Positions 5,007 to 28,486 of a DNA stretch of 41,188 nt are shown here, one piece after another. Source of the stretch: a bacterium (GTDB lineage: Bacteria > JAGOBX01); assembly GCA_036733285.1 (NCBI GenBank), contig DAINAU010000011.1, positions 1-41,188 on the forward strand, in the 5' to 3' direction. A program made the translations under genes and the position numbers. A model generated the notes under the pieces. That model was not told the DNA's origin. It ran no database searches and worked only from the letters and a program-made list of their open reading frames with translations. How positions within the stretch are numbered: the stretch's first letter is position 1; the number at the start of each line of letters is the position of its first letter.

Positions 5007-5160
5007 CGACCCTGAATGGGTCGAATTTAAAATTGTATTAAAATTCAACCCTTTCAGGGTTGGTAAGTTTGGTTTTTAGTTTTTTTGCGCCGCAGGTTTT
5101 CCTGCGCTCCGCGCAGTCTACCTGCGGTTATTTAAAATTCAACCGCTTTCGCGGTTGGGG
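5007..5160 (+). repeat. Repeat family A copy 1: roughly 150-bp intergenic element made of five consecutive short GC-stem hairpins (REP/MITE-like)
   Basis: Hairpins: cgaccc-tgaat-gggtcg; caaccct-ttc-agggttg; cgcagg-tttt-cctgcg; gcgcag-tctac-ctgcg; caaccgc-ttt-gcggttg. The reverse complement of 14313-14462 aligns over the whole length at roughly 85% identity. Confidence 0.85.
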
Positions 5161-5180
5161 ATTTTCTTAAAAATTGATTT

Positions 5181-5362
5181 AACCCGGATAATGCATTATA
5201 CATAAAGTGAAGTTTTTCAAAACATAAATGTATGCTTGTTAAAACTTCTAAAAACCCGAAAACTATTTGGTATGTTTTTAAGATTTTGAAAAATTGTCGA
5301 GAGCAAGTATTCTATAAGGTTTTCCCAATTTTTCAAAATCCTAACGCAGTTTCGGGTTTAAT
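5181..5362 (+). repeat. Repeat family B copy 1: structured element with nested perfect inverted repeats, in the 5' leader of the TonB-dependent receptor gene
   Basis: Homologous to 22478-22706 in the same orientation. Shared conserved blocks include ggataatgcatta, tgaagtttttcaaaacata, ttaaaacttctaaaaacccgaaaact, attttgaaaaattgtc, caagtattctat, caatttttcaaaatcct and gcagttttcgggtttaa. The outer helix (aaacccgaaaact / agttttcgggttt) and the inner helix (attttgaaaaattg / caatttttcaaaat) are both perfect. Confidence 0.8.
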
Positions 5363-9286: not shown

Positions 9287-10190
9287 CTATGCATCAATTT
9301 TTTTATAATCAATCACGAAAGATTTAAAGATTGTTTTTACTTTTTTTGATAGTTCATTGATAATATTTAATCCGCTTGCAAAGCGTGTAACTTTTAATTT
9401 TTTCAACTCATAAAAGATTTTGTTTTTCGTATAATCTTTGAGTTCTTTTGATGTTCTAAAGATTTTTTCAATTTGAGAAGTAATAATCAAAGCAATGAAT
9501 GTTAGAAAAATCTTTCCTTCTGTTCTTTTGCGCGACTGAACATATAGTCTATCTCTATCAATGTCGTTTTTCATTGTGTCAAATACCTTTTCAATATTTT
9601 TTTCCGCTTATACAAATCCAATGTTTTTTCTTTGGACAAATTTTCTTCGTTTGTTATTAAAATATATGTTCCGAACCTTTGAATTTGCGCGTCAATTTTT
9701 TTTGATTTTTTTTTATAAAATAAATATTATTTTTTTTATCGATTTCATAGAATTTTATATAATCCGAATAATTTTCTGAACAGTAGTTTTCAATTTCTTC
9801 GCGCGTTGAATAATTTTTTTCATTACATTTTTTTCTATACTTATTAATTGCTTGTAAAAACCTGTTACCCATTCATCATACATTTCTTTGTTTCTAAATA
9901 TATACGCCGTAAATATTTTTTCATGTTCCGTATATTTTTCGCCGTAGTCTGAATAAATAAAATCTTTATATATAATTAATTTCTCTTTGTTCTGAAGATT
10001 TAAATCGGCTTTAGCCAGCAATTCTATTGATTTCTTTGTTGAAAATGAAAGCGGAATAATAATTTTTCTTCTTTGAGGGATTTTATATCATCGCTACTGC
10101 AAAAGCCGCGGTCAACAACATATATAATTTTTTTATTCCCAAAAGGTTCATTTAATAATATTGCGATAAAACTAAACGGCAAATTCTATA
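9287..10190 (-). pseudogene. Decayed IS4-superfamily (IS4/IS1182/IS1634-like) DDE transposase, 5'-truncated and split over at least three frames
   Basis: Minus-strand translation gives …NLPFSFIAILLNEPFGNKKIIYVVDRGFCSSDDIKSLKEEK… (the characteristic vvDRGF second-Asp motif). It continues in shifted frames through ORFs 9755-10021, 9657-9872 and 9287-9574, the last of which is a C-terminal transposase-like tail (…FLTFIALIITSQIEKIFR…). No intact N-terminal half or first catalytic Asp region is present. Confidence 0.6.
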
Positions 10191-10404
10191 CTCCGCCTTT
10201 TTTTGCGGATTGCTTGATGGAATTATGCGAAAAAAATTAATCGAAGAAAAAAAAAATTATTGAAAAACGCCTATTTGAAAAAAATTTGGCGGAGGCGGAA
10301 GAAATATACTTATTCAATTCCGTAAGAGAAATAATACCGGTTAAATATGAAAAATGATATATACAATTCGTAACGAAGCGAAGTGTCTTTCCTTTTCCGA
10401 TAAA

Positions 10405-10488
10405 TCGGCTTAAACCGGAAGCGTAATTTTAAAAACGCCGCCTTTATCGGCTTAAACCGGAAGCGTAATTTTAAAAACGCTGCCTTTG
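10405..10488. repeat. 42-bp tandem direct repeat (2 copies, 1 mismatch) duplicating the 3' end of the histidine-kinase gene
   Basis: atcggcttaaaccggaagcgtaattttaaaaacgc[c/t]gccttt occurs at 10405-10446 and again at 10447-10488. The second copy encodes the last residues (…GKGSVFKITLPV*) of the kinase on the minus strand. The first copy lies outside the gene, beside the IS remnant. Confidence 0.85.
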
Positions 10489-12455
10489 CCCGGTTCGCTT
10501 ACTATATCAATTTTCGCTTTATGTTTGTCTAAATATTCTTTACATAAAAGAAGACCAAATCCGGAACCTTCCTCTCCGTCGGTTCCTAATGAAATATTTT
10601 TAGAATCGCCGTTAAAAATCGTTTTTATTTTACCGGCAGTCATACCCGTTCCGCAGTCTGCGATTTCAATTATGATTTTATTATTGTCCGTATGGCAGTT
10701 CAAATTTATCGTTCCGTTTTTAAAAGAAAATTTTATGGCGTTAGATAGAAGATTTCGGATAATAAGCGCAAATAAATTTTTATCTACTAAAGCCGTAGCA
10801 TCGCCGGCGCAATTAATATTTATTTTTATGTTTTTTAAGCCGGCAGATTCTTTAAGCTGTTCGACAGCTTCGCGAAATATTAATAAAATGTTTTCATTAT
10901 CAGGCGAAAAATTTGTTTTGCCGCTTTGGCTTCGCGACCATTCGAGCATATTATTTAAAAGATTAAAACCTTTATACGAGGTCTGTTTTAAACTTTCAAG
11001 AATAAGTTTTACTTTGTCTTCCTGAAAATCGTCGAGATTGTTTATTAAAAAGTCGCAAGTTGTTATAGAGGTTGTAAAAGGAGTTTTTAAATCGTGCGCG
11101 AGAATGGATATGAATTTGTCTTTTTCTTTTAGAAGTTTTTCAAGTTCGATAGTGCGTTCTTTGATTGTGTTTTCAAGCGAAAGTTTGTGTTTTTCAAGTT
11201 TTATTGAAAGCGATTCGACTTCGGTAAAAGAGAGCATTAAATTTTTAGCGAGAATAGCGGATTGGAACAAAATAAAAATAATAAGACCGATAGATTCCAG
11301 ATAATTCGTAAATATGAAATTTGAAGAATATAGAATATCGTTTAAAATAAAACCAAAGAAAATAATAAAAGCCGCAAGAAATGTTTTAGCGTTCAGCCGT
11401 TTGTTTTTTACGGTTTTAGACAAAGTAATAAAAACGTAAGTTGAAACAATAATAATCAGGATATACAAGAGATAAATCAATTGGGTAAATATAAAGACAG
11501 GCGTTATAAGAATTATTAAAATAATTGTTCCGACAATAATATCAAAAGAAATCACGGTTTTTTTTGAAGAATCAAGCGGATATAATTCATAGATATAATG
11601 TAAAATCAGCGGAACGAGTATGAAATGCGAAAAGTATAACGTTTTCATTAACAAAATCCAGCTCAAAAAATCGGGGAATATTTTTGATAAAGGCATTTCG
11701 CCGAATTCAATAAAACGCAGGCAGACTATAAAACATATCGCCGAGAAAAATAAAGAAGACTTGTCTTTTTTTCTCCAAAGATAAATAATTAAATAATAAA
11801 ACGAAATGATAAAAATCGAACCGGCTATGAAGAACTGAAAAATAAGCAAATTTGACGCTTGTTTTTGCATATCTTCAGCTAAACCGAAATAATAAGGTTC
11901 AAGAATGCCGCCTTCGCTGTGATGAAAATTCGAGAGTTGAATAAGAATGTCCACAGTTTGATTATCGGATTTTATAGGAATTGTCCTTTTGAATTTTTTA
12001 GGAATTTCTTCGGATTCGCTTCCGCCTAATTTTCCCGTTTCGATTCTCGCAATGCCGTCAACCCAAATTTTTATCGCCGAATAATGGTCGTTGATTTTTA
12101 ACGAGTATAATCCGTCGTTTTTCAATTTTATTTTAAATTTGAAAGTGGCATAACCAAATCCTTTTATGATTTCTTTTTTTCCATTATTGCGAATTGCGCT
12201 TCGGTTCCATGAACATGGAAAATCAATGTAATTTTGAACGACAAGCGTATCGGAATTAATGAAATCTTCGGGATTCAAGAATTGTTTCCAATAAAATTCT
12301 ATTTTTCCATGGAGCGGAATAATATTGTTTTTTAAATCAAATCCCGTTAAATCCAGAATTCCTTTTTCAATAACAGGATGTTTGATTGAGTTATTTGAAC
12401 AAGCCGCGAGATTAAAACAAATTATAATTAGATAAACCTGCAATTTGATTTTCAT
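10452..12455 (-). CDS. Sensor histidine kinase with an extracellular 7TMR-DISMED2-like domain, a 7TM region, HisKA and HATPase_c
   Basis: Lipoprotein-type signal (…FNLAACS); a roughly 180-aa extracytoplasmic domain; seven hydrophobic helices (residues about 200-400); an H-box (HDLKTP); and N, G1, G2 boxes (…NAIKFS…, DCGTGM, GSGFGL) at the C-terminus. Confidence 0.85.
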   Translation of the reverse strand: MKIKLQVYLIIICFNLAACSNNSIKHPVIEKGILDLTGFDLKNNIIPLHGKIEFYWKQFLNPEDFINSDTLVVQNYIDFPCSWNRSAIRNNGKKEIIKGFGYATFKFKIKLKNDGLYSLKINDHYSAIKIWVDGIARIETGKLGGSESEEIPKKFKRTIPIKSDNQTVDILIQLSNFHHSEGGILEPYYFGLAEDMQKQASNLLIFQFFIAGSIFIISFYYLIIYLWRKKDKSSLFFSAICFIVCLRFIEFGEMPLSKIFPDFLSWILLMKTLYFSHFILVPLILHYIYELYPLDSSKKTVISFDIIVGTIILIILITPVFIFTQLIYLLYILIIIVSTYVFITLSKTVKNKRLNAKTFLAAFIIFFGFILNDILYSSNFIFTNYLESIGLIIFILFQSAILAKNLMLSFTEVESLSIKLEKHKLSLENTIKERTIELEKLLKEKDKFISILAHDLKTPFTTSITTCDFLINNLDDFQEDKVKLILESLKQTSYKGFNLLNNMLEWSRSQSGKTNFSPDNENILLIFREAVEQLKESAGLKNIKININCAGDATALVDKNLFALIIRNLLSNAIKFSFKNGTINLNCHTDNNKIIIEIADCGTGMTAGKIKTIFNGDSKNISLGTDGEEGSGFGLLLCKEYLDKHKAKIDIVSEPGKGSVFKITLPV

Positions 12456-14267: not shown

Positions 14268-14312
14268 AGTTGTCCGACAGGGGCATTTTAAAATTTCTAT
14301 TTTTAGAAAAAT

Positions 14313-14462
14313 CGACAACCGCGAACGCGGTTGAATTTCATATAGTCGCAGGTGAACTGCGCGGAACGCGGGAAAACCTGCGGGATTAAACTCCGCCAAA
14401 ACAATCAACCCTGAAAGGGTTGAATTGTAAGAAAGTTTGAAATTCGACACTTATCAGGGTCG
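14313..14462 (-). repeat. Repeat family A copy 2 (inverted orientation), immediately downstream of the sigma-54 regulator gene
   Basis: The reverse complement aligns hairpin for hairpin with 5007-5160 (cgaccctga…gggtcg, caaccctttcagggttg, cgcaggttttcc(c/t)gcg, gcgcagt(t/c)cacctgcg, caaccgc(g/t)ttcgcggttg). ORF 14187-14450 overlaps it and is treated as spurious. Confidence 0.85.
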
Positions 14463-22400: not shown

Positions 22401-22477
22401 CTTTTGACTCTCCAATTAATTGCAATTAAAAATATAAAATTGCAGATGCGGGCATTAGCTTGTTGACGACAGTTATT

Positions 22478-22706
22478 CAACCGGATTAATGCATTAGATG
22501 TAAAATGAAGTTTTTCAAAACATAGATGTAATATTGCGATTGAAAATCGCAATTTATATTAAAACTTCTAAAAACCCGAAAACTTTTTAAATTTACGGCG
22601 TTAGCCGTAAATCATATGTTTTTAATATTTTGAAAAATTGTCTGAAACAAGTATTCTATGCTGTCTGAACAATTTTTCAAAATCCTTATGCAGTTTTCGG
22701 GTTTAA
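22478..22706 (+). repeat. Repeat family B copy 2, in the 5' leader of manA, same orientation as copy 1
   Basis: Same conserved blocks and nested helices as 5181-5362. It carries two extra perfect hairpins, attgcgatt-gaa-aatcgcaat and atttacggc-gtta-gccgtaaat, inserted at positions where copy 1 has short linkers. Confidence 0.8.
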
Positions 22707-22748: not shown

Positions 22749-23729
22749 ATGCCGAATTTCATTTCTTATCCGATAAAATTTTTTCCGATTTTCAAAGAAA
22801 ACGTTTGGGGCGGAAAAAATTTAAAAAATATATTGAATAAAAACCTGCCAAAAAATAAAAATATCGGAGAATCCTGGGAAATATCCACAGTAAAAAATAA
22901 TGTCAGCGTAATTTCAAACGGAAAATACAAAAGTTTACCGCTTCTCGAACTCGTCAGAAAATATCCGGTAGAATTGCTCGGATACAAATATAAAAATCAT
23001 AAAGAATTTCCTCTGCTCTATAAATTCTTGGACGCATCCGAAAACTTATCGGTTCAAACCCATCCGGATAATATTAGTTCCGGCAACAACAAATCGCTTT
23101 GCGGCAAATCAGAATGCTGGCATATTATTAATACTTCAAATAATAAAATCATACTTGGAGTCAATGAAAAATTTAATTTGAACAAGATTAAGAAACTAAT
23201 CAAATCCAACGACTTTGATTCTGTGTTGAATTACCGGAAAATAAAAAACGGCGATACTATTTATGTTCCTGCGGGAACAGTTCACGCGGTTTTAAAAGGA
23301 ACTTTAATCGCCGAGATTCAACAACCCTCAGATATAACCTATAGATTTTTTGACTGGAACCGGAATTTGCCGGAAAGACCCTTGCAAATTGGACAGTGTC
23401 TGAAATCAATCAAAAAAACAAGATTTAAAAATTTGACGCCGGCTCCAAAAGTCATTTTAAAAAATGACAATTTTGAAATAACCCGTTTATTAAAAAATAA
23501 ATTGTTCAACATAAACTTGGCCGTTTTTCAAAACGAATGTATTCTTGAAAATCTCAAAGACAGTTTTAGAATATTGTCGAATATAAGCCGCGATTGTAAA
23601 ATCCGTTTTTCTTCAGGAAAAAAAACTTACGGGTTTAGAAAAGGAGAAACGGTTTTAATACCTGCCGCCGTAAGCGGAAATTTAATTTTAAATTCATCCG
23701 GACAAACAAGAATATTGGATATTTCTTGA
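22749..23729 (+). CDS. manA: Mannose-6-phosphate isomerase, class I (cupin type)
   Basis: Matches to Bacillus-type ManA along the whole length: FKENVWGG, GESWEIS, FPLLYKFLD, SVQTHPDN, GKSECWHII, GDTIYVPAGTVHAV, IAEIQQPSDITYRFFDW. Confidence 0.85.
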   Translation: MPNFISYPIKFFPIFKENVWGGKNLKNILNKNLPKNKNIGESWEISTVKNNVSVISNGKYKSLPLLELVRKYPVELLGYKYKNHKEFPLLYKFLDASENLSVQTHPDNISSGNNKSLCGKSECWHIINTSNNKIILGVNEKFNLNKIKKLIKSNDFDSVLNYRKIKNGDTIYVPAGTVHAVLKGTLIAEIQQPSDITYRFFDWNRNLPERPLQIGQCLKSIKKTRFKNLTPAPKVILKNDNFEITRLLKNKLFNINLAVFQNECILENLKDSFRILSNISRDCKIRFSSGKKTYGFRKGETVLIPAAVSGNLILNSSGQTRILDIS

Positions 23730-23777: not shown

Positions 23778-24344
23778 TTATGATAAAGGTTCAATATAAG
23801 TAAAAGGAAAATCCACGGTTTGTTGTCCAAGAAAATTAAGCTGAACGCTTATTCTAAATTTACGCCAGTTTATTTTTACTATTTTGCTTATTTCATCTTT
23901 AAAAGGCCCAGCGATAAGTTTGACTTCATTCCCAACTTTCATTCCCACGGTATAATCGACAAAATCTTCTTTATTCAGCCATGTCATAACTTTTTCAATT
24001 TCTTTTCTTTCAAGAAAAATAGGTTTAAGAGTTTCGCTGTCTCTGAGAATTTTTATTAAACCTATGTTTTTTAATCTTAACATTTCTATATTGTCGATAA
24101 TTGAATCAACGTTTTTAATTTTTTCAATTAAAATAAACATATAACCCGGAAACAGTATTTTTAAAGTTTCCTTATATTCGTGTTTTCGTCTTTCAAGCAT
24201 TTTTTTTTTAGGAAGTTTTACAATTAATTCGTCTTTAAAATCCTCTTCAATGCAGAATTTTATTAATTCTTCTTTGCCGGTTATGACGTTTAACACATAC
24301 CAATAATAATTATCAACCAAATTAATTTCCATAAAATTTTCCAA
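23778..24344 (-). CDS. NusG-family transcription antitermination paralog (LoaP/UpxY/RfaH-like specialised NusG)
   Basis: An NGN domain (WYVLNVITGKE…LFPGYMFI) and a KOW motif (VKLIAGPFKDEISKIVKIN). 188 aa. It is not in a secE-nusG-rplK context and is the last gene of a minus-strand operon. Confidence 0.7.
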   Translation of the reverse strand: MENFMEINLVDNYYWYVLNVITGKEELIKFCIEEDFKDELIVKLPKKKMLERRKHEYKETLKILFPGYMFILIEKIKNVDSIIDNIEMLRLKNIGLIKILRDSETLKPIFLERKEIEKVMTWLNKEDFVDYTVGMKVGNEVKLIAGPFKDEISKIVKINWRKFRISVQLNFLGQQTVDFPFTYIEPLS

Positions 24345-24353
24345 AGTTTAAAA

Positions 24354-25601
24354 TTATCCGGATAATTTGTTTATTCGTTTGATTACAGACGGATGACTGT
24401 AATAAAAACTTTCATACGCGGGATGCGGATTGATGTTCGCACAATCGTTAATTATGAATTTTTTAAAAGACGATATTAACGGAACAGCGGAATTCATTGC
24501 GGTTTTTGAATATTTATCCGCGTCAAATTCGAATTTTCTCGATAGTCTGCTTGTAAGGGGCTGAACAAAATAAAAAATATTCTCGAAAAAAAAACCGGCA
24601 AACAGCAGTCCCGCAAAGAAAATTCTATTTATCCCCATAGAATTATAAGCAAAATCCGAAGATAACAAATAAAGTATAAAAGTTATAAATATAAAAAGAA
24701 CGGCGATAGAAAGAATCATTTGAATAAGTATATGTTTTTTTTTAGCGTGACCGATCTCGTGAGCAAGGACGGAAAGGATTTCATCGTCCGAATACTTGCC
24801 GTCGAGCATCGTGTCGAATATAATTATTTTTTTACTTTTTCCGAATCCTGAAAAACCGGCGTTAGCATGCGTTGATCTTAAGCTGGCGTCAACCGAATAA
24901 ATTCCTTTGATTTTAAAATTTAATTTATTTAATAACGCGTTGATTTTTTCAGTTAACGAATTGGATTCTATGGGTTTTATTTTGTAAAAAAAAGGAATGA
25001 TTATAACCGGAACAAGAAAAGTGAATAATATCAAGAGACAAGATATTATTATCCAGCCAGTAACCGCGTATTTCCATTTAAATTCGTTCAATTCGCCTCC
25101 GGTAAGATATAAAACCAAACTTAAAATAATTGATATTAGAATTATTTGAAGAGCTAAATTTTTTAAATTGTCTATAAACCATTTTTTTAAAGTATATTTA
25201 TTGAATCCGTATTTTTCTTCTATTGCAAAACTCGAATAATAGGACAACGGCAAATCGAAAAAACTATCAGCGATAATAAGTATGTAAAAAAAGATTAATC
25301 CTTTTAAAACGTAATGCAATTGAAGCGAATTAATCAGATTGACATATAAAACAAATAGCGGAGAAAACAAAAAAATAAACGCCAACACAATATCCAATGA
25401 ATCCGAAAAAATGGTAAATTTCATTTTTTCTTCGTTGTATTTTAAAGATTTTTCGCTTGTTTCGGATTTAACCGCGTCTAAAATTTCTTCGGGAATTGTT
25501 GCGGAAGCGCTTTTTAAATGTTTCAAATTTAAAATATTTAAAAATATATGAACCGCTGATTTTATTAAAAAAATTATTATAAAAAATAATTTAAAATCCA
25601 A
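24354..25601 (-). CDS. M48-family (Ste24/HtpX-like) integral-membrane zinc metalloprotease
   Basis: Multiple TM helices and an HEIGHAKKKH (HExxH) zinc-binding motif, followed by a downstream Glu-containing helix. 415 aa. Confidence 0.7.
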   Translation of the reverse strand: MDFKLFFIIIFLIKSAVHIFLNILNLKHLKSASATIPEEILDAVKSETSEKSLKYNEEKMKFTIFSDSLDIVLAFIFLFSPLFVLYVNLINSLQLHYVLKGLIFFYILIIADSFFDLPLSYYSSFAIEEKYGFNKYTLKKWFIDNLKNLALQIILISIILSLVLYLTGGELNEFKWKYAVTGWIIISCLLILFTFLVPVIIIPFFYKIKPIESNSLTEKINALLNKLNFKIKGIYSVDASLRSTHANAGFSGFGKSKKIIIFDTMLDGKYSDDEILSVLAHEIGHAKKKHILIQMILSIAVLFIFITFILYLLSSDFAYNSMGINRIFFAGLLFAGFFFENIFYFVQPLTSRLSRKFEFDADKYSKTAMNSAVPLISSFKKFIINDCANINPHPAYESFYYSHPSVIKRINKLSG

Positions 25602-25607
25602 ATATGT

Positions 25608-25898
25608 TTAACCTTCTTTATACACCGGCGATACGAAGTATCTAATTTTATTTTTCAATTCGGCGTTTTTTGATATTAAATTATCGAATAATTTTTCAAA
25701 TCCCGATAATTCCGATTCGTCTAAAGTGATAATCAAACCAATGCTTTTTTGCGGGCGGAGTTTATTGTCGGCAACGTCGAAATTCACGAAATCTATGTTG
25801 TCTGTAAATATATAATCGTTAATATTAGACTCGTCAAGAAATTTTTCCACCGTTTCCTGATATAAAGAACTATACCGCATCAATAAACAATATCTCAT
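25608..25898 (-). CDS. Hypothetical protein, 96 aa
   Basis: Tightly packed between the PilZ gene (ATGA-type overlap at 25895-25898) and the M48 protease gene. No recognisable motif. Confidence 0.4.
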   Translation of the reverse strand: MRYCLLMRYSSLYQETVEKFLDESNINDYIFTDNIDFVNFDVADNKLRPQKSIGLIITLDESELSGFEKLFDNLISKNAELKNKIRYFVSPVYKEG

Positions 25899-26311
25899 TT
25901 GCCTTTAAACCATAAACCGAATATTTTTGTTAAAAAGTTTTTTTCTCCGAATTTTTTTAAGAAATTTCGTATTGCCGACAATTCTCCGTCTCCGATTTTT
26001 TCAAAATAAATTCCGGCGTAATACTCCTTATTGTTTTCGGCGATTCTAATTTCTTTTCTAATAATTATTCCTTCGAAAAAAATTTCCGAAAAAATGTCCT
26101 GATTTTTTAAATTTTCGGGTATTTTAAGAATTCCGCGAAACCGTTCGAATAATTCAATGTCTTCGGGAATTTTTATAAAAGCGCCGCGTTCGCTTAAATT
26201 GATTGTTTCGACGCTAAAATTTTTAAAAGAACCGTTTATGGATTCCGCGTAGAATTTTATATGCAAATCATAGCGTTTATGCTTTCTTCTATCAGAAAAA
26301 TTATTCGTCAT
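25895..26311 (-). CDS. PilZ-domain protein (putative c-di-GMP receptor)
   Basis: RRKHKRY (RxxxR) and NLSERGAF (D/NxSxxG) motifs with PilZ spacing. I place the start at the internal Met (MTNNFSD), which forms an ATGA overlap with the upstream gene's TGA; the annotated ORF start 26350 would overlap it by 43 nt. Confidence 0.6.
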   Translation of the reverse strand: MTNNFSDRRKHKRYDLHIKFYAESINGSFKNFSVETINLSERGAFIKIPEDIELFERFRGILKIPENLKNQDIFSEIFFEGIIIRKEIRIAENNKEYYAGIYFEKIGDGELSAIRNFLKKFGEKNFLTKIFGLWFKGK

Positions 26312-28377
26312 TTTTGAGGTAAAATTTGTTTTTTCAGCATTCTCGACCAATAATATATCTGCCGCTCGACTTTGCTGTTTAAATTAGCGCTTTTCAAAAC
26401 CAAATCAAAATATTTAACCGCCTCATCGTTATTTTTTAAATTTTGAAAATTGATTAAAGCAGCCATATACAGAGCTTCCACATTATTAGGTTCAGATTTT
26501 AAAACTTCTTCAATTTGCGGAAGCAATTGAACTTTGTCAATTTTATTTGAATTATATTGTTTTACTATAGTCGCGTATTTTGGGCTGTATTCTCTACTTG
26601 CCATGTCGTTTATAAGATTATCGTCTGAAACCGCAGGACGCGCAGGTTTCCGGACTTCCTTAGGTTCGGGTTTTTCTTCAACAGGTTCGGATTTCCTTTT
26701 TTCAACTTTTTTAGGCGCGGGTTTCGGCGCTTCTTCCGCTTCTTCAGAATCCTCGTCTTCGCTTTCTTCTTTAGCCGCAGGTTCGGGTTTCTTTTTTTCT
26801 TCAGGTTTTTTCGCTTCTTTTTTTGGCGGTTCGGCTTTTTTTACCGGAGGTTGTTTTGGACTTTCTTCCTCGTCTTGTTCTTCGCCTTCGTCTTCTGCCG
26901 CTTGTTTATTGGCTGATTCCTTAATACTCTTTTTTTCTTCAGCCGGTTTTCCGTCTTCTTCGGATTCAGGAGTTTCCACCGCTGCGATTTCAGTTTTTGC
27001 AGGGGACATAATTGCAGTCATTATTTTCGCAAATATCATTTCGCCGGCTAATTTTAAATCTTTTTCATTAATTTTTAAAACCTGTTTGGCGAGTTTTCCC
27101 GAACTTACCGCTTTATTAAAATCTTCGTTAGTTTTCTTTTTATATTTTTCAGTTCCGGTTATGATGAAATCATTCTCGCCGTATTCGGCATTAATTGCAA
27201 AATCTGAAATTTGCAAAGTTAATTTGCCGATTCCCTCTATATTTTTTTCATAATTTATTCCGCTGAATTTTTTTTCCTCGTTATATGACAAATTTATTAT
27301 TTCGTTCGCATTTTCCGCTTCTATCTTTAATGATTCGACTAATCCTTCGTTATAGTTTAAAGACAATGAACTGTTTTTAGGTTCCGCGTCTTTTTCGGTT
27401 TCCAGCGTTGAAATTTTATTAATATTGCCGGATTCTCCGTATTCAAAAGTCGATACAATAGAAACCGGTTGATTTGTTTTAAAATTTTTTCCGGAAATTT
27501 CTATTTTTTCAATTGTAAAACTTTTTTTGTGAACAAATAAAATTATTGATTCCGGAGAATTGCCGGATTTATTTTTAGGCGTTAAAATAATTTTTACGTT
27601 TTGCGGCTCGCCTTTTTCTCTTGTGATTTCAAAGTTTTCCTTTATTTTATCAATTACTTTTTTATCTTTGGAACCTTCGTTTCCAGTTGTTTTTGGTTCG
27701 GCCGGCTGATTTTCCGGTTTCGCCTGTTCTTCAGAAACCTTTTTTTCGCCGTTTTCTTCATCTTTAGATTCTTCATCGCCGGATTCTTCGTCTTTATTTT
27801 CATTTTTTAATTCTGGTTCGCCCTTTGAGTTATTCATTGAAAAAGACGGAATCGGAAAAGGCAGCGTTTTAGCAAATTCTCCCGCAGACGCCGAATAAAT
27901 TTCTTTTAAATCGGGAAAACATACATTTGCCAATTCGTTAAAGGAAGAAATTTGAATTTTTTTAGAAACAACCGATTCCATCGCCAATAAAAAATTATTA
28001 TTTTTTTTGTCCGCGGTTAAACCCAAATTCAAATCGACATTTTTAAATTTTTGTAAGGGTTTGGGAAGTTCTTTTAAAAACTCATCTGTAAATTCGATAT
28101 TGGTTTTTAAGATAAATTTTAAAGACGTTAGTTCGCTAAATTCTTCAAGTCCAAAACTTTTTAGGGATGGCTCGAATATTTTTTCAAAAGCTTTTTCAAA
28201 AACTTTTTCCGGCGGCATTTGCTCGGCGGGAGCTTTCTGCGGCTGTTGCGGAGTTAAATTCGCCTCTTTTTTCTCTTCTCCCGTAAATAAGCCGATTATG
28301 GTATCCATATAGAAGAAACCTGCGCCGCCTATAACCAACAGTAAAACGACAGATAAAATGATTATTTTTTTATTCAT
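26308..28377 (-). CDS. Membrane-anchored protein with a long Lys/Glu/Pro-rich low-complexity region and a C-terminal TPR-like domain
   Basis: An N-terminal TM helix (IIILSVVLLLVIGGAGFFY); a central KE/PEPK-rich region of about 130 aa; and a C-terminal helical repeat (ALYMAALINFQNLKNNDEAVKYFDLVLK). The plus-strand ORF 26534-27253 inside it is low-complexity noise. Confidence 0.6.
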   Translation of the reverse strand: MNKKIIILSVVLLLVIGGAGFFYMDTIIGLFTGEEKKEANLTPQQPQKAPAEQMPPEKVFEKAFEKIFEPSLKSFGLEEFSELTSLKFILKTNIEFTDEFLKELPKPLQKFKNVDLNLGLTADKKNNNFLLAMESVVSKKIQISSFNELANVCFPDLKEIYSASAGEFAKTLPFPIPSFSMNNSKGEPELKNENKDEESGDEESKDEENGEKKVSEEQAKPENQPAEPKTTGNEGSKDKKVIDKIKENFEITREKGEPQNVKIILTPKNKSGNSPESIILFVHKKSFTIEKIEISGKNFKTNQPVSIVSTFEYGESGNINKISTLETEKDAEPKNSSLSLNYNEGLVESLKIEAENANEIINLSYNEEKKFSGINYEKNIEGIGKLTLQISDFAINAEYGENDFIITGTEKYKKKTNEDFNKAVSSGKLAKQVLKINEKDLKLAGEMIFAKIMTAIMSPAKTEIAAVETPESEEDGKPAEEKKSIKESANKQAAEDEGEEQDEEESPKQPPVKKAEPPKKEAKKPEEKKKPEPAAKEESEDEDSEEAEEAPKPAPKKVEKRKSEPVEEKPEPKEVRKPARPAVSDDNLINDMASREYSPKYATIVKQYNSNKIDKVQLLPQIEEVLKSEPNNVEALYMAALINFQNLKNNDEAVKYFDLVLKSANLNSKVERQIYYWSRMLKKQILPQK

Positions 28378-28486
28378 TATTTATTCATCTCCGGAAACAG
28401 TTTGAATTTCAAAAATTTTATATTTACAAATAATAAAAGTCAAATATAAATTGATTTTTTTTTAACTGCAAATAAAATGAAAAGCT

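What the first reader, a model, noticed from the sequence alone, without database searches (positions are those of the whole stretch)
23778..28377. Specialised NusG paralog as the terminal gene of a PilZ / M48-protease / KE-rich TPR membrane-protein operon
Specialised NusG paralogs (RfaH, LoaP, UpxY) normally sit at the 5' end of the long operon they antiterminate. Here the paralog (23778-24344) is the last of five tightly coupled minus-strand genes: a TM + KE-rich + TPR protein, a PilZ protein (ATGA overlap), a 96-aa protein, an M48 metalloprotease, then the NusG-like gene (9-nt gap). It converges on manA.

This suggests either a trans-acting antiterminator encoded with its own signalling partners (c-di-GMP receptor, membrane protease), or an envelope-stress and second-messenger module that includes a transcription elongation factor.
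Basis: partly seen in the sequence, partly recalled or inferred. Interest (0 to 1): 0.55.

Follow-up and report, generated by a model that had tools for sequence, protein, structure and literature searches.

The report
Divergent LoaP-like NusG paralog, operon-terminal
The last gene of this five-gene operon encodes a real, conserved, specialised copy of the transcription elongation factor NusG, closest to the antiterminator LoaP, but its position next to the PilZ/protease genes is a recent gene-order accident, so the case is only modestly unusual.

Summary
Five same-strand genes run TM/KE-rich/TPR protein, PilZ, a 96-aa protein (predicted P-II-like fold), a Ste24-type M48 protease, then a NusG-like gene. 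The array converges on manA.

The NusG-like protein is a specialised paralog, not a housekeeping NusG. It scores 54 bits on the NusG model (cutoff 136; true NusGs score 130-239) and 103 on LoaP (cutoff 125). It lacks the NusG FGR motif and keeps LoaP-type basic residues. Its AlphaFold model matches the LoaP-RNA complex 8f5g across both domains. It belongs to a tiny, monophyletic clade of about five sequence clusters, branching near the base of LoaP, in a deep-branching uncultured lineage. It is under strong purifying selection (dN/dS 0.07).

The proposed functional tie to PilZ/M48 is not supported. In the sister MAG the TPR-PilZ-96aa-M48 module is conserved on one contig, and the NusG paralog sits elsewhere with unrelated neighbours. 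Two more distant relatives place it in a secretin-TPR-[NusG]-PgpH-YbeY array.

Most likely this is a LoaP-type antiterminator acting on unidentified targets. It is a new member of a known kind, of modest interest.

The parts
23778..24332 (-). Specialised NusG paralog (184 aa; NGN + beta-barrel KOW), LoaP-like but divergent. An alternative TTG start lies at 24344.
   Evidence: Pfam NusG 34 bits. NCBIfam LoaP 103.4 (cutoff 125), NusG 53.7 (cutoff 135.7), UpxY 42, RfaH 19, calibrated. AF2 pLDDT 94.9. Foldseek best hit 8f5g, TM 0.76-0.82. dN/dS 0.07.
24354..25601 (-). Ste24-type M48 zinc metalloprotease (multi-TM N-domain + HEIGH catalytic domain)
   Evidence: Peptidase_M48_N 125 bits and Peptidase_M48 112 bits. 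Many 'STE24 endopeptidase' homologs.
25608..25898 (-). 96-aa protein with a predicted P-II/CutA/DUF3240-like ferredoxin fold
   Evidence: Single-sequence AF2 model, pLDDT 84. Foldseek hits to SbtB, P-II, CutA and DUF3240, TM 0.55-0.66. Weak NCBIfam PG0541_fam hit, E=0.006. 69% identical ortholog in the sister MAG.
25895..26311 (-). PilZ-domain protein (138 aa) with RxxxR and NxSxxG c-di-GMP motifs
   Evidence: PF07238 35.8 bits. Sequence MTNNFSDRRKHKRY...NLSERG. ATGA overlaps at both ends.
26308..28377 (-). 689-aa protein: N-terminal TM anchor, long K/E/P-rich low-complexity stretches, C-terminal TPR-like region
   Evidence: Translation. Sub-threshold TPR_16 hit. 51% identical ortholog in the sister MAG.
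28415..28463 (-). Promoter-like site TTGACT-17-TAAAAT (28443-28415) within a 45-nt block (28419-28463) that is 100% identical in the sister MAG. It is the likely operon promoter, or a shared divergent control region with the BMC-T gene.
22749..23729 (+). manA (class I mannose-6-phosphate isomerase), convergent on the NusG-like gene with a 48-nt spacer. Context only.
   Evidence: TIGR00218 127 bits. Sequence.

Best explanation
The gene at 23778-24332 (-) encodes a lineage-specific specialised NusG paralog whose closest characterised relatives are LoaP antiterminators.

Inferred mechanism:
- Its NGN domain binds elongating RNA polymerase in place of housekeeping NusG.
- A compact NGN-KOW surface carrying LoaP-type basic residues recognises a nucleic-acid signal. 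By analogy with LoaP this would be a small RNA hairpin in a 5' leader.
- The modified polymerase then reads through terminators in one or a few target operons.
- These targets are not in the window, so the factor most likely acts in trans.

Its position as the last gene of the TPR-PilZ-P-II-like-M48 operon is a recent gene-order event in this species and its closest relative, not a conserved functional module. The only likely consequence is that its expression is driven by that operon's promoter.

Shown here: the gene is real and under selection; it is not a housekeeping-type NusG; it has LoaP-like sequence signatures and a LoaP-like predicted fold; the linkage to the M48 operon is not conserved.

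Inferred: antitermination activity, RNA-based recruitment, trans action, and co-transcription with the operon.
For: Family scores:
- LoaP is the best-scoring family at 103 bits; NusG scores only 54.
- True NusGs score 130-239 on the NusG model and 82-102 on LoaP. RfaH scores 38 on NusG. True LoaPs score 132-197 on LoaP.
- 117 of the 136 nearest proteins from an exhaustive search of 1.84 billion are LoaP at E<=1e-30.

Signature residues:
- LoaP-like P-K-K, E47-R48 and R157-K158-x-R160 are present.
- The NusG F-G-R motif is replaced by L-G-Q.
- E40A and R41A abolish hairpin recognition in B. velezensis LoaP (PMC12691694). The mapping of those residues onto E47-R48 is my inference from the alignment.

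Structure:
- AF2 model with pLDDT 94.9 and pTM 0.85, with a beta-barrel KOW.
- It matches the RNA-bound LoaP structure 8f5g over both domains (TM 0.76-0.82, rmsd 3.4 A). Other NusG/RfaH entries fit one domain only.
- The 8f5g chain scores 185 bits on the LoaP model.

Selection and phylogeny:
- dN/dS 0.07.
- The clade is monophyletic in 95% of bootstraps.

Gene context varies among relatives while the M48 module is conserved without the paralog.

Stand-alone or oddly placed NusG paralogs that act in trans are already known (PMC7593976, PMC7819879).
Against: - The protein misses the curated LoaP cutoff (103 vs 125).
- It lacks the LoaP G-x-E-G motif.
- It is not robustly nested inside LoaP. It branches at the LoaP/NusG internode, with 67% NJ bootstrap support for grouping with LoaP.
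- No LoaP-type leader (UNCG hairpin plus terminator) was found in the window, and no biosynthetic or polysaccharide cluster is nearby.
- No target is known.
- The AF2 interdomain arrangement was derived from a LoaP-dominated alignment.
- In all four contexts the gene is tightly embedded in a same-strand array, which is also compatible with cis action.
- Presence of a separate housekeeping nusG in the same genome was not verified.
Confidence: 0.6

Rival explanations
1. One reading: the NusG paralog is a functional component of a c-di-GMP / membrane-protease / envelope-stress module. PilZ, the P-II-like protein, M48 and the TPR protein would control or be controlled by the elongation factor.
For: - Tight packing in one same-strand array, with no internal terminator-like site.
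- The same layout occurs in the 86% relative.
- All contexts of the clade contain envelope-associated genes: secretin, TPR proteins, a 7TM-HD receptor, a glycosyltransferase-like gene.
Against: - In the sister MAG (PNPase 91% identical) the TPR-PilZ-96aa-M48 module is intact on contig JAGOBX010000035, while the paralog is on contig JAGOBX010000096 with unrelated neighbours.
- No neighbour family is shared between the three types of context.
- The window's arrangement coincides with a synteny breakpoint.
Confidence: 0.12
2. Cis-acting, operon-embedded elongation factor. The protein loads onto the polymerase transcribing its own operon and promotes expression of downstream genes. In the window the downstream genes have been lost through rearrangement.
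For: - In L001, L003 and L013 the gene is followed by overlapping or near-overlapping downstream genes (GT-like; PgpH-YbeY).
- A cis-loading 'ancestral' mechanism has been proposed for NusG paralogs (PMC7819879).
Against: - In the window and in L004 nothing lies downstream on the same strand (convergent manA, or a TA pair), yet the gene remains under strong purifying selection (dN/dS 0.07).
- The downstream genes differ between contexts.
- pgpH-ybeY is a short housekeeping pair, with only one weak plus-strand terminator-like site, inside the pgpH-like ORF.
Confidence: 0.15
3. It is the sole, highly divergent housekeeping NusG of a deep-branching lineage.
For: - The lineage is deep-branching: PNPase is only about 55% identical to any named phylum.
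- No canonical nusG from the same MAG could be retrieved with the tools.
- The NJ tree places the clade near the LoaP/NusG boundary.
Against: - NusG model score of 54-60 bits for the whole clade, against 130-239 for real NusGs and 38 for RfaH.
- The FGR motif, invariant in the NusG-like group, is lost.
- The gene is not next to secE/rplK, and its neighbourhood changes between close relatives, unlike the invariant nusG locus (PMC7593976).
- It evolves faster than PNPase: 74% vs 91% identity to the sister MAG, and 56% vs 71% to the next MAG.
Confidence: 0.05

Closest known systems
LoaP (NCBIfam NF033641; B. velezensis / Thermoanaerobacter LoaP, PDB 8f5g)
   Same: - Best-scoring family model.
- The nearest sequence neighbours are bona fide LoaPs.
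- Shared basic signature residues: P-K-[KR], E-R, and R-K-x-R in the KOW domain.
- Same predicted compact NGN-KOW arrangement as the RNA-bound crystal structure.
- Loss of the NusG FGR motif.
   Different: - Scores 103 bits, below the 125 cutoff.
- Lacks the G-x-E-G motif.
- Branches outside or at the base of the LoaP radiation.
- Found in an uncultured diderm lineage, not in Bacillota, Actinomycetota or Spirochaetota.
- No adjacent polyketide or polysaccharide cluster.
- No UNCG-hairpin leader found.
- Sits as the terminal gene of an unrelated operon.
RfaH (E. coli; TIGR01955)
   Same: A specialised NusG paralog whose gene is not attached to its targets. E. coli rfaH is stand-alone and convergent on tatD. 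A trans-acting logic is the most plausible here too.
   Different: - Only 19 bits on the RfaH model.
- The KOW domain is predicted as a beta-barrel, not an alpha-hairpin.
- No evidence of ops-type DNA recruitment.
UpxY / TaA (operon-first NusG paralogs)
   Same: NGN+KOW paralogs encoded inside operons.
   Different: - These are the first genes of long polysaccharide or polyketide operons, and UpxY is paired with UpxZ.
- Here the gene is last or internal in short, unrelated operons.
- UpxY model score is 42, against a cutoff of 100.
Housekeeping NusG (TIGR00922; secE-nusG-rplK-rplA locus)
   Same: Same two-domain fold, with conserved W11, G19, FPGY and GP motifs.
   Different: - 54 bits against a cutoff of 136.
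- No FGR motif.
- Variable genomic context.

Membership tests
NusG/Spt5 superfamily | N-terminal NGN domain | tested here: met
   PF02357 34.2 bits against a cutoff of 22.2. The AF2 model shows an alpha/beta NGN fold that matches NusG/RfaH NGN domains.
NusG/Spt5 superfamily | C-terminal KOW beta-barrel | tested here: met
   PF00467 scores 20.4, just under the 22.3 cutoff. The AF2 model has a five-stranded barrel at residues 128-180 with pLDDT above 90.
Housekeeping NusG (TIGR00922) | Score at or above the curated equivalog cutoff (135.7 bits) | tested here: not met
   53.7 bits; the clade scores 54-60. Real NusGs in the same hit list score 130-200 and E. coli NusG scores 239.
Housekeeping NusG (TIGR00922) | KOW F-G-R-x-T motif (the Phe corresponds to the one needed for Rho/S10 contacts in E. 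coli NusG; from established knowledge) | tested here: not met
   The query clade has L/I-G-Q/H-x-T. The NusG-like group has F 100% and R 100% at these positions.
Housekeeping NusG (TIGR00922) | Conserved secE-nusG-rplK-rplA neighbourhood | tested here: not met
   The window and all relatives show other, mutually different neighbours. The E. coli reference locus is shown.
LoaP (NF033641) | Score at or above the curated cutoff (125 bits) | tested here: not met
   103.4 bits. Clade members score 103-118.5. It is the best-scoring family, but true NusGs also reach 82-102 on this model.
LoaP (NF033641) | Phylogenetic placement within the LoaP clade | tested here: inconclusive
   NJ with 100 bootstraps: the clade is monophyletic in 95%. 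It groups with LoaP against NusG+RfaH in 67%. About half of the replicates nest it beside a few LoaPs. No ML tree was possible.
LoaP (NF033641) | RNA-binding residues and compact NGN-KOW RNA-binding architecture | tested here: met
   The E47-R48 pair is conserved (E 5/5, R 4/5 clade members) and the basic R-K-x-R motif is present. The model superposes on LoaP-RNA complex 8f5g over both domains with TM 0.76-0.82. The residue mapping to BvLoaP E40/R41 is inferred (PMC12691694).
LoaP (NF033641) | Binds a UNCG-type hairpin in the 5' leader of its target and antagonises NusA-stimulated intrinsic termination | not testable with these tools
   The scan of the window found no UNCG hairpin in any leader. 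Targets are presumably elsewhere in the genome. Biochemistry is required.
LoaP (NF033641) | Gene located near a secondary-metabolite or polysaccharide operon | tested here: not met
   The window's 41 kb holds housekeeping, signalling and transport genes only. One relative has a weak glycosyltransferase-like gene downstream.
RfaH (TIGR01955 / NF006534) | Model score at or above 144.5; alpha-helical autoinhibitory CTD; ops recruitment | tested here: not met
   18.6 bits. The CTD is predicted as a beta-barrel, although AF2 cannot exclude fold switching. ops was not tested.
UpxY (NF033644) | Model score at or above 100; first gene of a capsule operon, followed by upxZ | tested here: not met
   42.3 bits. 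The gene is last in its array, with no capsule genes nearby.
PilZ c-di-GMP receptor (PF07238) | RxxxR and (D/N)xSxxG motifs | tested here: met
   35.8 bits. R9-K-H-K-R13 and N-L-S-E-R-G are seen in the translation. Binding was not tested.
Ste24-type M48 metalloprotease | Peptidase_M48_N membrane domain plus HEXXH catalytic domain | tested here: met
   125 and 112 bits. HEIGH and a downstream E-F-D-A-D are present in the translation.

The most novel reading that the evidence does not exclude
The five-cluster clade is a separate family of NusG paralogs, sister to LoaP and confined to a deep-branching uncultured diderm lineage from anaerobic digesters. It would have its own recruitment signal and be habitually embedded in envelope-related operons (secretin/TPR/7TM-HD; PilZ/P-II-like/M48). 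In the window, antiterminator dosage would then be set by the promoter of a c-di-GMP/P-II/protease signalling operon, linking envelope or second-messenger state to elongation control of distant operons.
Probability: 0.15. Interest if true: 0.55.

Novelty: new member of a known kind. Interest (0 to 1): 0.3.

Why it matters
Specialised NusG paralogs control costly long operons (capsules, antibiotics, secretion systems), and only a few of them (RfaH, LoaP, UpxY) are understood mechanistically. This case extends LoaP-like factors to an uncultured Gram-negative-type lineage outside the phyla where LoaP has been reported. It also gives a well-conserved, high-confidence model with LoaP-type RNA-binding features but no obvious target. 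It is a useful data point on how these genes move around genomes. It does not reveal a new kind of system, and the proposed PilZ/M48 coupling, which was the main reason for interest, does not survive comparison with relatives.

Tried and rejected
- Rfam gathering-threshold scan and tRNA scan of the window found nothing.
- A scan for UNCG-tetraloop hairpins found 29, almost all inside coding regions. The only intergenic one is on the antisense strand between pnp and manA, so there is no candidate LoaP leader.
- The terminator scan found no minus-strand site inside the operon. The 3' spacer folds into a long imperfect hairpin (z = -2.5) that is not a canonical intrinsic terminator.
- The genome-contig scan with the clade alignment returned only the sister MAG and an unrelated Dehalococcoidia NusG-family gene.
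- The metagenome-contig scan returned no confirmed relative.
- PADLOC gave no defence-system hits for any of the five proteins.
- I tried to locate this lineage's housekeeping NusG by looking up the most similar NusG-type hit (P0029). It lies on a 1-kb contig from an unrelated run and was uninformative.
- The LoaP structure paper (PMC11648650) and the original LoaP paper (PMC5913657) are not held. RNA-contact residues therefore come only from the mutants named in PMC12691694.
- A BLAST search for any shared neighbour between the window, L001 and L003/L013 found none, even at E<1.
- I considered the repeat upstream of manA as a possible shared leader or target element. I rejected this because the 86% relative lacks it.
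Full report
**Observation**

The gene calls of the public assembly from which the window derives (GCA_029560555.1, contig JAKQKR010000134.1) reproduce them, as do several JGI and Logan metagenome contigs from anaerobic digesters.

Reading the junctions:
- The TPR-protein stop and the PilZ start overlap as ATGA.
- The PilZ stop and the 96-aa start overlap as ATGA.
- 6 nt separate the 96-aa gene from the M48 gene.
- The M48 stop is 9 nt from a TTG or 21 nt from an ATG start of the NusG-like gene. The ATG at 24332 (184 aa) is the start supported by the gene callers and by the N-termini of the homologs.
- The gene ends 48 nt from the stop of the convergent manA.

The only strong promoter-like site on this strand, TTGACT-17-TAAAAT at 28443-28415, lies upstream of the first gene, and no terminator-like site lies inside the array. 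That promoter sits in a 45-nt block (28419-28463) that is 100% identical in the sister MAG, although the flanking proteins are only 51-85% identical. A five-gene operon is therefore likely, but co-transcription is inferred.

**The four upstream genes**

- The 689-aa protein has an N-terminal membrane anchor, long K/E/P-rich tracts and only sub-threshold TPR hits.
- The PilZ protein (138 aa) passes Pfam and shows the RxxxR and NxSxxG motifs.
- The 96-aa protein has no Pfam family. A single-sequence AlphaFold model (pLDDT 84) matches P-II, SbtB, CutA and DUF3240 folds with TM 0.55-0.66. This agrees with a weak NCBIfam PG0541 hit.
- The protease is a Ste24-type M48 enzyme with the membrane N-domain and HEIGH.

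**What the NusG-like protein is**

Pfam finds the NGN domain. NCBIfam ranks LoaP first (103.4 bits, cutoff 125), then NusG (53.7, cutoff 135.7), UpxY (42) and RfaH (19).

Because a LoaP score near 100 could be unspecific, I calibrated it:

| Protein group | NusG model (bits) | LoaP model (bits) |
|---|---|---|
| Housekeeping-type NusGs from the hit list, and E. coli NusG | 130-239 | 82-102 |
| E. coli RfaH | 38 | 40 |
| Bona fide LoaPs | 36-97 | 132-197 |
| Query clade | 54-60 | 103-118 |

The NusG score is what excludes a housekeeping identity. The LoaP-minus-NusG difference (+50 to +59) puts the clade on the LoaP side.

An exhaustive HMMER search of 1.84 billion representatives found only 533 proteins at E<=0.001. 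One close cluster (P0005) is 45% identical and everything else is about 25-38%. Of the 136 best full-length hits, 117 match LoaP at E<=1e-30 and 14 match NusG.

Column-by-column comparison shows:
- LoaP-like P-K-K, E47-R48 and R157-K158-x-R160.
- L-G-Q in place of the F-G-R motif, which is invariant in the NusG-like group.
- Absence of LoaP's G-x-E-G.

E40A and R41A abolish hairpin recognition in B. velezensis LoaP (PMC12691694). Their equivalence to E47-R48 is my inference from the alignment to 8f5g.

A bootstrapped NJ tree with E. coli NusG and RfaH gives the following:
- The clade is monophyletic in 95% of replicates.
- It attaches at the LoaP/NusG internode.
- 67% of replicates group it with LoaP against NusG+RfaH.
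- About half of the replicates nest it beside a few LoaPs.

It is therefore LoaP-like, but not demonstrably a LoaP.

**Structure**

With the 136-sequence alignment, AlphaFold gives pLDDT 94.9 and pTM 0.85, with an NGN domain and a beta-barrel KOW. Foldseek against the PDB puts 8f5g ('NusG-RNA complex') far ahead, at E 1e-15, TM 0.76-0.82 and rmsd 3.4 A over 177 columns covering both domains. All other NusG and RfaH entries either fit one domain or superpose with rmsd above 12 A. The residues of the 8f5g chain shown score 185 bits on the LoaP model, so it is a LoaP. This fits the LoaP-RNA crystal structure cited in PMC12691694. One caveat applies: the alignment that drove the prediction is mostly LoaP sequences.

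**Is the linkage to PilZ/M48 meaningful?**

Four types of evidence say no.

1. The 86% relative (L004) keeps M48 then NusG, but has a PhD/PIN toxin-antitoxin pair inserted before manA.
2. In the sister MAG GCA_017999075.1 (PNPase 91%, GlmS 85%), the whole neighbourhood is conserved on contig 35, ending at the contig edge. That neighbourhood is BMC-T, kinase and glmS, divergent from TPR-PilZ-96aa-M48. Its NusG paralog (74% identical) lies on contig 96. There it follows a 184-aa unknown protein and a divergent EutN/DeoC pair, and it precedes a weak glycosyltransferase-like gene. In that MAG, pnp is followed by P-II and an RND transporter rather than manA, so the window's junction is a synteny breakpoint.
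3. In GCA_964644095.1 (PNPase 71%, paralog 56%) and in an unbinned contig (paralog 45%), the gene sits 1 nt after a ~300-aa TPR_6 protein that follows a secretin. It overlaps a PgpH-like 7TM-HD receptor gene, which is followed by ybeY.
4. All-against-all BLAST finds no neighbour family shared between these three context types.

The paralog is nevertheless kept and constrained. Its dN/dS against the 86% relative is 0.07, the same as for M48. It diverges faster than PNPase.

UpxY and TaA are first genes of their operons and loaP lies adjacent to its targets. E. coli rfaH, however, is monocistronic, convergent on tatD and acts in trans (PMC7593976, PMC7819879). RfaH-like genes have highly diverse neighbours, including Tat, H-NS and toxin-antitoxin genes (PMC7593976). 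A NusG paralog away from any long operon is therefore not anomalous in itself.

**Most likely function**

This is a LoaP-type processive antiterminator. The NGN domain would bind RNAP, and a basic NGN-KOW surface would recognise a leader signal. In LoaP that signal is a UNCG-tetraloop hairpin, and LoaP antagonises NusA-stimulated intrinsic termination (PMC12691694). The targets are probably unlinked and remain unknown.

The window contains no biosynthetic or polysaccharide cluster, no Rfam element and no leader-located UNCG hairpin. The operon position probably only determines when the factor is made.

Rival explanations are a true PilZ/M48 functional module (0.12), cis action on its own operon (0.15) and a sole divergent housekeeping NusG (0.05). 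The model scores, the lost FGR motif and the unstable context make it very unlikely.

**Taxonomy**

PNPase identity drops from 91% and 71-73% in four MAGs or contigs to about 55% against Nitrospirota, Spirochaetota, Desulfobacterota and others. The NCBI labels are 'bacterium' and 'Candidatus Dependentiae'. A TonB-dependent receptor in the window, and a secretin and a porin in relatives, indicate a diderm. LoaP has been reported in Bacillota, Actinomycetota and Spirochaetota (PMC12691694), so this extends LoaP-like factors to another lineage.

**Verdict**

This is a new, divergent member of the known class of specialised NusG paralogs, in a non-conserved genomic position. Interest is modest (0.3).

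Noticed in passing
window 5010-5360, 22475-22703 and 14296-14460 (inverted): A composite interspersed intergenic repeat. Module 1 (5010-5177, and inverted at 14296-14460; 83-84% identical) is a string of short GC-rich hairpins. Module 2 (5177-5360 and 22475-22703; 81-97% identical) lies directly upstream of the TonB-receptor gene and of manA. The 86% relative lacks module 2 between pnp and manA, so it behaves as an insertion-type (MITE/REP-like) element at the synteny breakpoint next to the finding.
   Followed up: partly
window 28419-28463 (and 28469-28481): A 45-nt block, 100% identical to the sister MAG, in the divergent intergenic region between the BMC-T gene and the TPR operon. It includes the TTGACT -35 element. 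The flanking proteins are only 51-85% identical, which suggests a conserved promoter or operator.
   Followed up: partly
window 28487-29098 (+), with 29101-31982: A tandem-BMC-domain shell protein (CcmP/CsoS1D-like; NCBIfam 224 bits, below the 340 cutoff) sits alone next to an AmgK-like sugar kinase and glmS. This trio is conserved in the sister MAG. That MAG also has EutN + DeoC next to its NusG paralog, so the microcompartment genes appear dispersed in satellite loci.
   Followed up: no
window 25608-25898 (-): The 96-aa operon protein, with no Pfam family, is predicted to have a P-II/SbtB/CutA/DUF3240-like fold. The conserved module would then pair a PilZ c-di-GMP receptor with a P-II-like protein upstream of a Ste24-type protease.
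   Followed up: partly
L004 1785-2470: A PhD/YefM antitoxin plus PIN toxin pair is inserted between the NusG paralog and manA in the 86% relative. This marks the spacer as a permissive insertion site.
   Followed up: no
window 10404-10487: A 42-nt unit is duplicated in tandem at 98% identity (one mismatch), spanning the 3' end of the 7TMR-DISM histidine-kinase gene, which occupies 10452-12455 on the minus strand (family D5).
   Followed up: no
window 9287-10182 (-): A run of short consecutive minus-strand ORFs (95, 71, 88 and 52 aa) lies in a 1.27-kb gap between the XdhC-like gene and the histidine kinase. It looks like a fragmented gene, possibly a decayed transposase. This was not checked against any library.
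   Followed up: no
L003 10568-12732: The PgpH-like 7TM-HD gene is called as two overlapping ORFs (212 + 516 aa) in GCA_964644095.1 but as one ORF in L013. This suggests a frameshift or assembly error in L003.
   Followed up: no
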